Below, one piece after another: positions 30,001 to 33,000 of a stretch of 64,000 nucleotides of DNA (its first letter is position 1; each line of letters starts with the position of its first letter). Source of the DNA: Nitrospirota bacterium (GTDB lineage Bacteria; Nitrospirota; UBA9217); the NCBI GenBank assembly GCA_963749655.1, contig CAVVOB010000030.1, forward strand, positions 289,798 through 353,797. The letters run 5' to 3'. Made by a program: the position numbers.

Positions 30001-33000
30001 TGAGCCTGGGCCTCGCGCTGGCGGACGAGGTCAATTTCCGCAAGGGTGAATTCGCCTACCGCCTCGCCGATGTCGGTGACCGCAAGCGGAAACGCATGCT
30101 CATCATCGCGGGGGCGGCAGCAGCGGTCCTAGCAGGGGTCAATCTGGGCGTCAAGTACTACCTCGTGGAGACGAGTTACAACAAGCTCGACCGCGAGATC
30201 CGGGAGATCTACCGCCAGGTGGCCCCGGAGTCGCGGTCCGCGCCCGACCCCGTGCGTCAGCTGCGGATGAAGCTTGAAGACGCGAAGAAGAAGTTCGGCG
30301 TCCTCGGCTCCGGTTCCTCGGCGCTCGATGTGATGAAAGCGGTGACCGAAGGGATCCCGAAGGAGGTCCGCGTCGCGTTCCAGGACTTCAGCCTTGAGGG
30401 CGACCGGCTGAAACTCCAGGGAGAGGCCGAATCGTTCGAATCGGTGGACAAGATGAAAGCGGAGCTGCAGAAGGCCCCGCCCTTCGCCGATGTCCAGGTC
30501 CAGGACACGCGGATGGGAGCGAACAACAAGGTGAAGTTCCGGTTCGAGATCAAACTGAAACAGGTGCTGTGATAACGGGTTATATTTGAAACCACAGATG
30601 AACACTGATGGACACAGATGAAAGAAGTGATCTTCGAAAAAGGGTATTTGCATCAAGAATTAACAGGGGAAATCATCGAATCAGCCATGAAGGTTCATAA
30701 TGCTCTTGGCTGCGGTCTGCTGGAAAAAGTATACGAAAATGCTCTGGCATGGGACCTGGAACTGAAAAAGAAAAAAGTAGCTTTGCAGCAGGCTTTTACC
30801 GTTCGCTATCGTGAAAAAGAAGTGGGTTTATATTACGCCGATGTAGTGGTCGAGGATCGCGTGATCATTGAAGTGAAATCAGCCGATGGAATAGACGATG
30901 TTCATCGGGCACAGATATTGAACTATTTGCGGATATCGGGACTTCGAGTGGGGTTGTTGATTAATTTTGCAAAACCGAAATTGCAGTTTGAAAGATTTGT
31001 GGTCTAATCTGAGTTCACTCTACAAACAGCCGTGAACCTCGGATGAACACTGATAAACACTGATAATCAGGGCTAGTTTATCAAAGTTTCGGATTATCTG
31101 TCAGGTGTACTGAATGCAAGCAGTGCATTTTAGTCATCTGCGTTCATCTGTGTCGATCTGTGGTTACAAATGCCATAGATTTCCGTGTTCATCCGTGGTT
31201 TCAACTGCATTGAGGTGTTTTCTTGAAACTTGAAGAACGCGATAAAAAGGTCCTCATATACGGAGGCGCTGGAGCGGCGCTCATCCTGCTGTACGCGCTG
31301 GTCCTGTCACCGCTCACCTCCGACCTTTCCCGGAAGCGCGAGCTGATCCCGCGGAAGGAAAAAGACGTTGCGGAAATGAAGGAGCTCAGGTCCGAGTACG
31401 CCGAGATCCAGAAGCGGCTCCAGGAGGCTCAGGCCGCGGCGGTAAAGCGGGGGCCGCTGCTCACGGACATCGAGGCCATCAGCAAACGGGCCAACCTGAG
31501 CGGCAAGATCGTTTCCCTCAAGCCCCAGGCGGGCGTCCAGACGGAGGGCTTCAAGGAAAGCGTCGTCGAGATCAGGCTCGAGAACATCACCCTGTACGAT
31601 GTGGTGAACTACGTCTACCTGCTTGAACAGGCCACCCTGCGCATCAGGAAGCTCCAGTTCAAGCCCCGCTATGACAACCCCAAGCTCCTGAACGCAACGC
31701 TCCTGGTCTCGAGCGCAGGATAGGACAGGATAGGACATGATCGACAAGAAACTGCTCATCAGGAGACTGTCCTTTGCGGCCTATTTCGCGGCGGTATTCC
31801 TCTTTTTCCTGTTCCTGCTTTTTCCTTTCGACCTGCTTAAGACAAGACTGCAGAACGAAGTGCGCAGACGCTCGGCACTCGAGCTCAGCATTGCACGCAT
31901 TTCCCCGCGTTTTCTGAACACGTTCCTGCTCACCGATGTCGTCGTGTCGGACCAGGCGGGCAAGGTCCTGTTCGAAAGTCCCTCGGCAAGAACAACGGTA
32001 TCCCTCTTCGGACTTCTGCGCAACCGATTGTCGCTCAAAGTGAAGGCGAAGGCCTACAGCGGCGATCTGCTGGTTAGGTTGCAGCAGGGTACGGGGCAGC
32101 AGTCGCTCCAGATCGACGCGGACGGCCTGAACATCGGGGCCTATCCGCTCCTGAAGAACTTCGGTCTGACGCTTGCCGGCAGAATAGGCGGGAATTTCGA
32201 AATGAGCGGTGATACGGGCAAAGGGCGGATCTGGCTCAAGGGATTTGCGTCGAGAGAGCTCAAAATAAAGGGGTTTCCCATCCCGGACCTCGACTTCGAC
32301 CAATGCTGGCTCGAAGCGGACGTCAAGGGGGACCGGCTGACGATCAGGAAGCTCGAGCTGGACGGCAAAGAACTCAAGGCCCGCTGCTCCGGCGACGTCG
32401 TCCTTCGTGAGCGCGGGTCGCTCAACCTTACGATCAAGCTCAAGCCGTCGGAGCGGCTCGTCCGCGAGCAGGCTGTTGTGTTCTCGTTGTTGAAGAACAA
32501 GGACGCCGACGGGTATTACCAGTTCAGTCTCGGCGGCACGGTTGCGGACCCGCTGCCGAGGCTGTAGCGGCGAAGCTCGCCAGCCGGCGATGTTTTCGCC
32601 GGTATGCTCCGGCCGCGCTCAAGAAGACCGCGAGGAGCGGCTGAAACGTCTCGTGGGTATACAATCGAAATATCTATTTTTGACTTCCTTACACTGCCAA
32701 CTTTCCTTTCCCTTTTCTGTGGCATGATTCTTTGCGCTTGAGTGCTGACATCGCTATCCGAAACTTTATGGGTGGCGATGTGAAGATATCATACGAATAG
32801 TGCACCTTCATGCCGACAACCTGGCGTGACGGACCATGACGGCTTACGGCGTTGTTGCTCCTGGTATCGGCAAAACTGATGCTGCTGAAGTTTGCATCAA
32901 GACCATGCCGGATTTTTCCTATTGCGACTCTCGGAGCTTCACCAGTCTCGTTCATACCATGACGACTTCTTCGACAACAGCCCGGAGGCCTTCCGCCTCA

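What a model noticed while it worked through the whole genome (the two positions that open the first line are those of the whole stretch)
30591..31200. GxxExxY (PDDEXK_3) nuclease-fold genes sit inside inverted arrays of 8-10-nt boxes: a new kind of mini-element
Each of the three GxxExxY/PF13366 genes of this genome is bracketed by inverted arms made of two to four phased 8-10-nt boxes. Each gene has its own box sequence: C30:320388-320997 (CAC[AG]GATGAA), C12:213422-213881 (CGCAGAT) and C17:23952-24495 (CACGAATT). The same architecture holds for this protein family in relatives and in four other phyla, and protein sequence groups with box type. I therefore read gene plus arms as one small (about 460-610 bp) selfish unit whose protein recognises its own arms.
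Evidence so far: 3 of 3 genes in G000 are bracketed. 16 of 20 examined loci in relatives are bracketed, arms 370-590 nt apart, and 8 of 10 in Acidobacteriota, Betaproteobacteria, Chloroflexota and Desantisbacteria genomes. 0 of 20 arbitrary 1-kb control windows show such a pair. Four type-2-bracketed proteins of other species are 73-78% identical to the C30 copy against 32-45% for 18 others. GxxExxY and D..ExK residues are invariant. The AF2 model has pLDDT 96.9 and its weak Foldseek rows are all PD-(D/E)xK nucleases. TIGR04256 E 1e-38 to 1e-43. The family has 38,000 representatives. Of 5 papers naming the family, none gives a function.
(Added by a program. Inside this text positions count along the whole contig: contig position 289,798 is position 1 of the stretch shown here. 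"Call 12" and the like, gene names such as g00115 and contig names such as C1 are that model's own, and its searches are not shown. The text may have been shortened before it was handed on; [...] marks where a part breaks off. The agent that wrote the report below was given it as the finding of a first reader that could run no searches.)

Follow-up and report, generated by a model that had tools for sequence, protein, structure and literature searches.

The report
Nuclease gene flanked by phased-box repeats

Summary
A 129-aa GxxExxY/PDDEXK_3 gene (30618-31007) lies in a 650-bp, 42% GC insert between gspL and gspM. It is bracketed by inverted arms of 10-nt-phased boxes. All 3 genes of this family in the genome have such arms. 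So do 43 of 55 loci in relatives and 44 of 70 loci from many phyla, against 0 of 600 random places.

- The boxes are not private to the genes. The genome holds about 129 gene-less hairpins of four box classes.
- Box arrays occur almost only in genomes that carry the gene, both in this family and in a Flavobacterium replicate.
- The cassette is old. It sits at the same operon sites across genera, under purifying selection, with decayed and emptied versions.

An unrelated small protein family (PF05635, the 23S-rRNA-intervening-sequence protein) shows the same layout with 7-nt boxes.

My best reading (0.45) is a system that works like REPIN/RAYT. The nuclease binds phased boxes as duplex sites and maintains or spreads gene-less box palindromes in trans. 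No binding, cleavage or target duplication is shown. Fine-scale box-type matching failed in 2 of 4 tests. I found no description of this link in the papers searched. Interest is high.

The parts
30573..31222 (.). Whole insert between the gspL stop and the gspM start (650 nt, about 42% GC in a 62-66% GC operon)
   Evidence: The same junction is 36-41 nt long in G008, G012, G010 and G001.
30584..30621 (+). Left arm: three 10-nt-phased boxes (CACAGATGAA, CACTGATGGA, CACAGATGAA). The third box contains the ORF's ATG.
   Evidence: I1, I3, D1. In contigs of other metagenomes this stretch recurs in unrelated contexts, with loose ends at 30585-30590 and 30619-30626.
30618..31007 (+). GxxExxY / PDDEXK_3 gene, 129 aa, with G33 E36 Y39 D75 E85 K87 intact
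   Evidence: Orthologues at the same site show dN/dS 0.04-0.14.
31035..31064 (+). Second set of plus-oriented boxes, forming the left arm of a nested gene-less hairpin
   Evidence: D1, I4, I8. Orthologous cassettes in G003, G014, G006 and G013 lack this piece.
31134..31171 (-). Inverted arm: the best partner of the left arm (38 nt, 84%) and also the right arm of the nested hairpin
   Evidence: I1, I2, I5, I8. RNA fold of 31030-31175 gives z -2.8.
31182..31204 (-). Outermost right arm (TCCGTGTTCATCCGTGGTTTCAA), 91% complementary to 30586-30608
   Evidence: I3, I4. It is the same terminal arm as in G009 and G013, and a remnant of it survives in G004 and G011.
29244..30572 (+). gspL-like gene upstream (host operon)
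31223..31723 (+). gspM-like gene downstream (host operon), followed by gspN at 31737-32567
17198..17303 (.). Gene-less hairpin of the CACGAAT class elsewhere in the window (3 + 3 boxes, AT-rich loop)
   Evidence: RNA fold gives z -6.4.

Best explanation
The GxxExxY protein is the trans-acting partner of a family of 'phased-box palindromes'. Each arm is a row of 2-4 copies of a 7-8-nt core, spaced 8-10 nt apart so that successive copies lie roughly one helical turn apart. I infer that the small PD-(D/E)xK nuclease binds these boxes on duplex DNA as a cooperative multimer, brings the two inverted arms together and cuts at or near them. The gene sits between one such pair of arms. That pair is a resident master copy, inherited vertically at harmless junctions inside operons and co-oriented with them. 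The same protein keeps alive, homogenises and occasionally copies the many gene-less hairpins of its box class elsewhere in the chromosome. In behaviour this resembles REPINs and their non-jumping RAYT genes, but it is built on an unrelated protein and a different repeat design. Shown here: the architecture and its statistics, the dispersed gene-less copies, the co-occurrence across genomes, the age and constraint of the cassette, and intact catalytic residues. Inferred: binding, cleavage, and any role in copying.
For: (1) Architecture. Arms score 30 or more at 43 of 55 relatives' loci and 44 of 70 cross-phylum loci, against 0 of 600 random places. The arm period is 8-10 nt. (2) Dispersed partners. 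G000 has 39 CACGAAT, 46 CACRGAT, 23 CGCAAAG and 21 CGCAGAK hairpins with 3 or more boxes. Three of these four classes match the arms of the three resident genes. (3) Dependence. In the window's family, all 7 genomes without PF13366 have 1-5 hits to two box patterns, while the 18 with the gene have 12-328. Fifteen of 16 genomes of other families lack the gene; all 16 have 0-3 hits. Within the genus, only G000 has a CACGAAT-armed gene, and only G000 has CACGAA arrays: 141 against 7 or fewer in the 14 others. Replicate in 81 Flavobacterium genomes: 3 or more triple-box hits in 50 of 66 gene-bearing genomes and in 1 of 15 gene-less ones. (4) The boxes, not a stem, are constrained. In 37 CACGAAT hairpins the spacer columns between boxes match between the two arms in 11-24% of cases, against 28-36% expected. 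Most loops are unrelated in sequence and length. (5) Constraint over time. At the gspL|gspM site the synonymous distance dS is 1.5 or more in 5 pairs and too large to compute in 9 of 15. The protein is still conserved (dN/dS 0.04-0.14) and the arms remain recognisable. G013 and G020 carry CACGGAT in both arms where G003, G014 and G006 carry CACAGAT in both. (6) Arms decay without the gene. G004 and G011 have no PF13366 gene and background array counts, yet retain a solo right-arm remnant at the junction. (7) Some copying of whole hairpins. Four CACRGAT hairpins on four contigs share a homologous 81-nt loop (75-96% identity) in unrelated flanks. (8) A known mobiliser is excluded. Y1/RAYT-type transposases (PF01797) occur in all 7 array-less genomes and are missing from array-bearing G008 and G015. 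(9) The catalytic D..ExK and GxxExxY residues are invariant in 20 of 20 aligned proteins. The fold is PD-(D/E)xK.
Against: No binding, cleavage or movement is shown. Relatives are not independent: the five gene-less genomes of the genus may be one clade, and genome size confounds the Flavobacterium correlation. PF05635 is missing from the same 7 genomes, so a third factor could govern genes and arrays together. Type matching is imperfect. G000 has 72 CGCAAAG pattern hits (23 hairpins) but no CGCAAAG-armed gene in its 86.6%-complete assembly. The a priori test of CACGGAT against CACAGAT went as predicted in G013 (4 vs 0) and G020 (17 vs 5), but not in G014 (6 vs 5) or G006 (18 vs 11). One gene-less Flavobacterium genome (G115) has 9 hits, and 16 of 66 gene-bearing ones have fewer than 3. 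Most hairpin loops are not copies of one another, unlike REPINs. No target duplication was seen.
Confidence: 0.45

Rival explanations
1. Gene plus arms is an autonomous mini-transposon of 430-780 bp whose nuclease is its transposase. The gene-less hairpins are its internally deleted derivatives (MITEs or fossils).
For: The unit is compact, foreign in composition and flanked by terminal inverted repeats. Empty junctions exist. Decay series are seen: G009 (384 nt, gene broken), G019 (fragment), G004 and G011 (solo arm). G000 has a gene-less hairpin at nuoF|nuoG, where five relatives carry a gene. Loops are AT-rich like the cassette (0.35-0.42 GC against a genome value of 0.564).
Against: No two gene-bearing units in a genome are near-identical. 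The same junctions are occupied across genera with divergence like that of the flanking genes, which is vertical descent rather than recent jumping. No target duplication was found. The family is found on 7 of 72,556 plasmid records and on no phage record. Fossil arms would decay along with the loops, yet the arms stay near-perfect. A lone PD-(D/E)xK nuclease has no known strand-transfer activity (general knowledge).
Confidence: 0.2
2. The gene is a passenger or a homing guest. The box palindromes are made or moved by something else (a host factor or an unidentified enzyme). GxxExxY and PF05635 genes lodge in their loops or are carried as cargo.
For: Two unrelated small proteins occupy the same position in the same kind of structure. 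Both families are missing from the same 7 genomes. Hairpins nest in or replace one another at the same sites: C17 against C38, C37 against C39, and the nested hairpin in the window.
Against: The box period follows the protein family: 8-10 nt for GxxExxY, and 7 nt in 27 of 29 PF05635 arms with a detectable period. Seven genomes outside the window's family have PF05635 but no PF13366, and they lack the CACRRAT and CGCAAAG arrays. Arrays are at background in nearly every genome without the gene. Y1 transposases do not track the arrays.
Confidence: 0.15
3. The arrays are operator or architectural sites and the protein is a DNA-binding regulator or nucleoid protein that also controls itself. Nothing moves. 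This is the reading Aklujkar et al. gave to paired tandem-repeat sites in Geobacter metallireducens.
For: Phased boxes are constrained as duplex sites rather than as a stem. The left arm overlaps the gene's start codon. Hairpins lie between genes of operons. In G. metallireducens, paired sites on opposite strands made of 3-5 tandem 7-9-nt repeats (24, 21 and 8 pairs) were read as binding sites of an unidentified global regulator (PMC2700814, passages read).
Against: The nuclease residues are invariant. Sites turn over quickly and swap type between contigs about 90% identical. The neighbouring genes have no common function. Four hairpins share a loop in unrelated contexts. Whole clades do without the system.
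Confidence: 0.12
4. The system acts on RNA. The arms pair in the operon transcript, and the protein (or RNase III) cuts the cassette out or sets mRNA ends, as happens with 23S rRNA intervening sequences.
For: Where the neighbours' strand could be called, the genes are co-oriented with them: upstream 36 same against 4 opposite, downstream 31 against 1. Hairpins fold better than shuffled sequence (z -6.4 and -2.8). PF05635, the family named after intervening sequences, shares the layout.
Against: Spacers between boxes do not co-vary to keep a stem. The minus strand of the nested hairpin folds no better than shuffles (z -1.5). The 8-10-nt phasing fits a DNA helical repeat. No RNA data could be obtained.
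Confidence: 0.05

Closest known systems
REPIN-RAYT systems (REP doublets and their REP-associated tyrosine transposases)
   Same: In both, a resident, largely vertically inherited gene is flanked by inverted copies of a short repeat. The same repeat is dispersed as gene-less inverted doublets between genes. The repeat population is absent where the gene is absent. [quoted passage not shown] Listings.)
   Different: The protein here is a roughly 125-aa PD-(D/E)xK nuclease, not a Y1/HUH transposase, and PF01797 does not track the arrays. Each arm is a phased row of boxes, not a single short palindrome. Most loops are not copies of one another. A genome carries several genes with different box classes.
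Terminal-inverted-repeat DNA transposons with MITE derivatives
   Same: Inverted ends, a gene between them, and short gene-less derivatives. Multiple subterminal protein-binding repeats occur in some transposons, such as Tn7, Mu and Ac/En-Spm (recalled, not tested).
   Different: There is no known transposase fold, no target duplication, no near-identical autonomous copies, and the sites are conserved across genera.
23S rRNA intervening sequences with a PF05635 (four-helix-bundle) ORF
   Same: A unit of about 0.4-0.55 kb with inverted ends enclosing a roughly 125-aa ORF. In this genome and its relatives, PF05635 genes are bracketed in the same way: score 30 or more in 20 of 31 and 5 of 6 by eye in G000.
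   Different: The protein family is unrelated, the box period is 7 nt, and the element here lies in a protein-coding operon rather than in rRNA. That intervening sequences have inverted ends is recalled from the older literature, not read here.
Paired tandem-repeat 'global regulator binding sites' of Geobacter metallireducens (Aklujkar et al. 2009, PMC2700814)
   Same: Dispersed pairs of sites on opposite strands, each made of 3-5 tandem 7-9-nt repeats with variable spacing. They are present in one species and absent from its relative. The reverse complement of class 2 (TCTCCGTS) resembles the CACGGAG-type boxes seen here (passages read).
   Different: The authors made no link to a GxxExxY gene in the passages read and proposed IHF/HU-type regulators. 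Their supplementary alignments could not be opened, so identity with the present elements is untested.
Iteron or centromere-like arrays bound by small proteins (ParR/parC, omega heptads)
   Same: Rows of short repeats at helical phase, bound cooperatively (recalled).
   Different: Those lie on plasmids and serve partition or replication. Their proteins are not nucleases. They are not dispersed as hairpins across a chromosome.

Membership tests
PDDEXK_3 (PF13366) / GxxExxY (TIGR04256) | Profile match above the curated cut-off | tested here: met
   PF13366 129.2 bits (cut-off 22). TIGR04256 136.2 bits (cut-off 35).
PDDEXK_3 (PF13366) / GxxExxY (TIGR04256) | GxxExxY motif and D...ExK catalytic residues | tested here: met
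   G33 E36 Y39 D75 E85 K87 are invariant in 20 of 20 aligned proteins.
PD-(D/E)xK nuclease superfamily | Alpha/beta restriction-endonuclease-like core fold | tested here: met
   AF2 pLDDT 93.9. Foldseek hits are weak, but all listed rows whose function is named are PD-(D/E)xK nucleases (Cas4 SSO0001 at E 1.7e-4, MGME1, lambda exonuclease, Hjc, RecU). There is no solved structure of the family itself (best E 0.12).
PD-(D/E)xK nuclease superfamily | Metal-dependent phosphodiester cleavage | not testable with these tools
   Needs an enzyme assay.
REPIN-RAYT system | The gene is a Y1 (HUH) transposase homologue | tested here: not met
   The gene matches only PF13366. PF01797 is present in all 7 array-less genomes and absent from array-bearing G008 and G015.
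REPIN-RAYT system | The gene is flanked by inverted copies of the dispersed repeat | tested here: met
REPIN-RAYT system | Gene-less inverted doublets of the same repeat are dispersed in the same genome | tested here: met
   129 hairpins in four classes.
REPIN-RAYT system | The repeat population is absent where the gene is absent | tested here: met
   7 of 7 gene-less genomes of the family are at background. So are 14 of 15 gene-less Flavobacterium genomes. Relatives were not corrected for kinship.
REPIN-RAYT system | The copies are whole-element replicas, spacer included | tested here: inconclusive
   There are 25 loop-to-loop matches, most between tandem neighbours or variant contigs. One dispersed subfamily of 4 copies and a few pairs share loops; most loops are unrelated.
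TIR transposon with MITEs | Target-site duplication at the ends | tested here: inconclusive
   None is seen at gspL|gspM, where the flanks are too diverged. One 270-nt indel is flanked by a GAAGAAG direct repeat, which could equally be a microhomology deletion. None is seen in the 4-copy subfamily.
TIR transposon with MITEs | Several near-identical autonomous copies per genome | tested here: not met
   Of the three genes in G000, the two compared with the window's copy are 35% and 39% identical to it. Relatives carry 1-10 genes, of differing box types where typed.
23S rRNA intervening-sequence element | The ORF belongs to PF05635 and the element lies in rRNA | tested here: not met
   The ORF matches PF13366 only and lies between gspL and gspM.
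Known anti-phage defence or phage gene families | Match to PADLOC or PHROGs models | tested here: not met
   0 families in either library. No phage record matched.

The most novel reading that the evidence does not exclude
GxxExxY nucleases, and in parallel the PF05635 four-helix-bundle proteins, are array-binding proteins that each maintain and spread their own class of phased-box palindromes through the chromosome. These would be second and third, non-HUH kinds of vertically inherited 'nested replicator' besides REPIN/RAYT, found from Bacteroidota to archaea. This would assign a role to two very large families of unknown function. It would also explain orphan dispersed repeats such as the paired tandem-repeat sites of Geobacter and perhaps the heptamer tandem repeats of cyanobacteria.
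Probability: 0.35. Interest if true: 0.9.

Novelty: new variant of a known kind. Interest (0 to 1): 0.8.

Why it matters
PF13366/TIGR04256 is a very large family: 14,095 representatives at 50% identity from a single-sequence search. No function is given in the 5 papers of the searched library that name it (passages read in 2 of them). Here the family is tied, with controls and a replicate in another phylum, to a distinct and abundant class of dispersed repeats. That gives a concrete biochemical hypothesis that can be tested: sequence-specific binding and cutting of phased boxes. It also offers a second case, independent of RAYTs, for studying how a resident gene and a population of short repeats persist together. 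The elements sit inside essential operons (T2SS, nuo, heme and NAD synthesis), so they may affect operon expression. The box specificity appears to vary from gene to gene and could be of interest as a set of small programmable DNA-recognition modules.

Tried and rejected
- Exact-6-mer detector requiring phased boxes on both sides: 21 of 71 true pairs against 228 of 4970 mismatched pairs. It was too strict because boxes vary within an arm, so I replaced it with alignment scoring.
- Orientation from all open frames was useless in high-GC DNA. I replaced it with a longest-frame rule, which still left many flanks unclear.
A closer 8-protein alignment A2 was used instead, so the 80 cross-phylum loci are biased towards one subfamily.
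- Sequencing runs: no RNA holder was listed, and only three DNA runs hold small shares (0.05-0.08). Laying them showed the left arm as a repeat in other contexts and no joint across the element. This says nothing on excision or expression.
- Homodimer prediction: the queue was full four times. The job then ran and gave 'no answer'. It is not evidence either way.
- Target duplications were sought at gspL|gspM, in variant contigs and in a 4-copy hairpin subfamily. None was convincing.
- Fine box-type matching (CACGGAT against CACAGAT) failed in 2 of 4 genomes. Position 4 of the box seems degenerate.
- The tree test used 39 of 62 rows. Rows with stops, short matches, arm score under 26 or no clear box core were dropped. 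The result cannot be separated from shared descent.
- PADLOC, PHROGs, phage records and PDB sequences gave nothing.
- Literature: searches found no paper linking this family, or PF05635, to flanking tandem-box arms. Two searches failed on term syntax. Supplementary alignments of PMC2700814 were not available. Subscription journals are not covered.
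Full report
**What is at the coordinates**

The window carries a type II secretion operon:
- gspL-like gene, 29244-30572
- gspM-like gene, 31223-31723
- gspN, 31737-32567

Between the gspL stop and the gspM start lie 650 nt of 0.40-0.45 GC. 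The flanking genes read 0.62-0.66 GC. The insert holds one ORF, 30618-31007, of 129 aa. It matches PF13366 (PDDEXK_3, E 1.3e-37) and TIGR04256 (GxxExxY, E 6.4e-40).

The left end (30584-30621) is three 10-nt-phased boxes: CACAGATGAA, CACTGATGGA, CACAGATGAA. The third box contains the start codon. This arm is 84% complementary over 38 nt to 31134-31171, and 91% complementary over 23 nt to the outermost stretch 31182-31204. A further set of plus-oriented boxes (31035-31064) lies just after the gene.

So the G000 copy reads: left arm, gene, a nested gene-less hairpin, outer right arm. Orthologous cassettes in four relatives have only arm, gene, arm.

**Is it more than chance?**

The genome has three PF13366 genes. 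All three are bracketed, each by its own box: CACRGATGAA, CGCAGAT, CACGAATT.

I scored the best local alignment between 240 nt around the gene's 5' end and the reverse complement of 370 nt around its 3' end.

| Set | Score 30 or more | Score 26 or more |
|---|---|---|
| Relatives' loci with full flanks (55 of 62) | 43 of 55 | 50 of 55 |
| Cross-phylum loci with full flanks (70 of 80) | 44 of 70 | 51 of 70 |
| Random places in G000 | 0 of 600 | 3 of 600 |
| Windows displaced by 1 kb | 0 of 135 | 1 of 135 |
| Mismatched flank pairs | 103 of 1500 | 185 of 1500 |

The mismatched pairs score because loci share box types.

The cross-phylum loci include Bacteroidota, Chloroflexota, Acidobacteriota, Planctomycetota, Ignavibacteria, Bacillota and a Methanoperedens archaeon. 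The span from outer end to outer end has a median of 477 nt (428-781) in relatives and 511 nt across phyla. Where an arm has a clear period, it is 8, 9 or 10 nt and never 7.

- CACRGATGAA occurs 131 times in G000, and CACGAATT 291 times. Mostly they occur as '+++---' clusters at 10-nt steps with 35-130 nt between the arms and no gene.
- A class-by-class census finds 39 CACGAAT, 46 CACRGAT, 23 CGCAAAG and 21 CGCAGAK hairpins with at least three boxes.
- One of them lies in this window at 17198-17303.
- Their loops are AT-rich (0.35-0.42 GC against a genome value of 0.564) and are mostly unrelated to one another. Most of the 25 loop-to-loop matches are between tandem neighbours or strain-variant contigs.
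- Four CACRGAT hairpins on four contigs share an 81-nt loop at 75-96% identity in unrelated flanks. Whole hairpins have therefore been copied at least sometimes.

**Boxes, not a stem, are what is conserved**

In 37 CACGAAT hairpins, the spacer columns between boxes agree between the two arms in only 11-24% of cases. Independence would give 28-36%. The hairpins would still fold as RNA (z -6.4 and -2.8). But a structure selected as a stem should keep its spacers paired. Phased, conserved cores with free spacers look like rows of protein-binding sites on duplex DNA.

**Arrays go with the gene**

Among 25 genomes of the window's family:
- 18 carry PF13366 and 7 do not (G001, G002, G004, G010, G011, G016, G017).
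- I summed hits to two patterns, CACRRAT-N2-4-CACRRAT and CGCAAAG-N1-3-CGCAAAG. The sum is 12-328 in the 18 gene-bearing genomes and 1-5 in the 7 others. The reversed-pattern control gives 0-2.

Of 16 genomes from other families of the phylum, 15 lack the gene; all 16 have 0-3 hits.

Within the genus, only G000 has a CACGAAT-armed gene, and only G000 has CACGAA arrays: 141 hits against 7 or fewer in the 14 other genomes.

In an unrelated genus (81 Flavobacterium genomes), a triple-box pattern gave three or more hits in 50 of 66 gene-bearing genomes and in 1 of 15 gene-less ones.

Y1/RAYT-type transposases do not explain this. PF01797 is present in all seven array-less genomes and absent from two array-bearing ones.

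Caveats:
- Relatives are not independent.
- The five gene-less genomes of the genus may be one clade.
- Genome size confounds the Flavobacterium correlation.
- PF05635 is missing from the same seven genomes, so a common third factor is possible.

**The cassette is old and constrained**

The gspL|gspM junction varies among relatives:

| State of the junction | Genomes and length |
|---|---|
| Filled with an orthologous gene and arms | G003 (478 nt), G013 (472), G006 (492), G014 (479), G020 |
| Gene decayed | G009 (384 nt) |
| Gene fragment | G019 |
| Solo right-arm remnant | G004 and G011 (99 and 98 nt) |
| Empty | G008, G012, G010, G001 (36-41 nt) |

Between the orthologues, the synonymous distance dS is 1.5 or more in 5 of 15 pairs and too large to compute in 9. 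Where dN/dS can be computed (6 pairs) it is 0.04-0.14. The non-coding arms remain recognisable.

In G013 and G020 both arms read CACGGAT, where G003, G014 and G006 read CACAGAT in both arms. This is a concerted change.

Other junctions recur across genera: nuoF|nuoG, x|nadE, hemH|hemY, nuoH|nuoI and nuoJ|nuoK. They are always between genes of an operon. Where the neighbours' strand could be called, it is the same as the gene's: upstream 36 against 4, downstream 31 against 1 in the cross-phylum set. Many flanks stayed unclear.

The family is nearly absent from plasmids (7 of 72,556 records) and was not found in phage records.

This is the profile of a resident, vertically inherited gene, not of a jumping element.

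**Turnover and site re-use**

Two contigs of the draft, C17 and C38, are 88-94% identical variants of each other.
- Where C17 has the GxxExxY cassette with CACGAAT boxes, C38 has a different small gene in the same place. It is a PF05635 protein (E 2.9e-14) between inverted arrays of the 8-nt unit AGTGCGGA.
- Two gene-less CACGAAT hairpin sites of C17 are gene-less GTGCGGA-type hairpins in C38.

In a second variant pair, C37 and C39:
- A CGCAGAT hairpin in C37 is replaced in C39 by a CGCSGAG hairpin next to a leftover CGCAGAT arm.
- A CACAGAG hairpin is present in C39 only. It is flanked by a 7-nt direct repeat, which could be a target duplication or the trace of a microhomology deletion.

In G000, nuoF|nuoG holds a gene-less CACGAAT hairpin where five relatives hold genes with other box types.

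Hairpins therefore nest in, sit beside or replace one another at favoured sites.

**A second protein family with the same design**

- Five of the six PF05635 matches in G000 are bracketed by inverted arrays of short tandem boxes.
- In 31 loci from G000 and relatives, 20 score 30 or more and 25 score 26 or more.
- The period is 7 nt in 27 of the 29 arms that have a detectable period.
- Gene-less hairpins of these types also exist in G000.
- Seven genomes of other families have PF05635 but no PF13366. They lack the CACRRAT and CGCAAAG arrays.

So the box class and its period follow the protein family. This argues that the enclosed protein, rather than a common outside enzyme, reads the boxes.

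**The protein**

G33, E36, Y39, D75, E85 and K87 are invariant in 20 of 20 aligned family members. AF2 gives a confident model (pLDDT 93.9). Its Foldseek matches are weak, but the named ones are PD-(D/E)xK nucleases: Cas4 SSO0001 at E 1.7e-4, MGME1, lambda exonuclease, Hjc and RecU. No member of the family has a solved structure.

A single-sequence search finds 14,095 representatives at E<=0.001. About 25 of the best 150 are double-length proteins with two matched stretches, which hints that the working unit is a dimer.

**Against my reading**

- Type matching is only coarse. G000 has 23 CGCAAAG hairpins but no CGCAAAG-armed gene in an 86.6%-complete assembly.
- I predicted that CACGGAT-armed genomes would have mainly CACGGAT arrays and CACAGAT-armed genomes mainly CACAGAT arrays. 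This held in G013 (4 vs 0) and G020 (17 vs 5). It failed in G014 (6 vs 5) and G006 (18 vs 11).
- Protein clades do group with box cores: 16 label changes against at least 21 in 300 shuffles, using 39 of 62 rows. Inheritance of whole cassettes explains that without any co-evolution.
- No target duplication, no excision joint and no expression data were obtained.

**Verdict**

The finding is real and larger than described. The best-supported explanation (0.45) is that GxxExxY nucleases are the trans-acting partners of genome-wide families of phased-box palindromes. This works like REPIN/RAYT but fails that system's defining protein test, so it is not a member.

A passenger or homing-guest role (0.15), a purely regulatory role (0.12) and an RNA-level role (0.05) are not excluded.

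In the library searched, the only related description is of paired tandem-repeat sites in Geobacter metallireducens. They were read as regulator-binding sites, and no link to this protein was made in the passages I read (PMC2700814). Five papers name the family (4 were listed, passages were read in 2), and none assigns a function.

Noticed in passing
G000 contigs C38:2795-3295, C30:55899-56216, C14:31837-32151, C20:75802-76074, C18:229845-230147 (outside the window); relatives' loci L168-L196: PF05635 (23S-rRNA-intervening-sequence / four-helix-bundle) genes are bracketed by inverted arrays of 7-nt tandem boxes. Arm score is 30 or more in 20 of 31 loci, and the period is 7 in 27 of 29 arms with a detectable period. 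Gene-less hairpins of the same types occur in the genome. This is the same architecture as for GxxExxY, with an unrelated protein.
   Followed up: partly
G000 C17:23840-24720 against C38:2690-3330, and C17:25870-26420 and 34580-34900 against C38:4480-4820 and 13265-13440: Variant contigs 88-94% identical carry different cassettes and different hairpin classes at the same three sites: GxxExxY with CACGAAT boxes against PF05635 with GTGCGGA boxes.
   Followed up: partly
window 17198-17303: A gene-less hairpin of the CACGAAT class (3 + 3 boxes, AT-rich loop; RNA fold z -6.4) lies 13 kb upstream of the finding.
   Followed up: yes
G000 C27:28516, C30:125641, C13:293445, C18:228460 (outside the window): A conserved multi-copy framework (...GTACTTTAC...CATCTTGAAATTTGAGTCAA... 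hairpin ...GGTCTGAGGC..GCCTCGTTAA) holds a CACRGAT hairpin in two copies and a CGCAAAG hairpin in two others. What the framework is was not determined.
   Followed up: no
G000 C18:108660-108830 (nuoH|nuoI junction, outside the window): A different kind of intergenic palindrome (GTCATTCCTGCGAAAGCAGGAATC... / ...CCGGAATGAC) occupies this junction, where G012 has a GxxExxY cassette.
   Followed up: no
proteins P0001, P0002, P0003 and others: About 25 of the best 150 family representatives are 233-389 aa long with two matched stretches. They are apparent tandem fusions of two GxxExxY domains. One 2139-aa protein shows 11 matched stretches.
   Followed up: no
relatives G001, G002, G014, G019: Some relatives carry 19-29 matches to Y1 (IS200/IS605-type) transposases, many of them identical in score. 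This suggests active IS families unrelated to the box arrays.
   Followed up: no
G022:C113 (locus L132): One GxxExxY gene is flanked not by box arrays but by a perfect 25-nt inverted repeat (AGATTAATCGTAACTATTCAGCATA).
   Followed up: no
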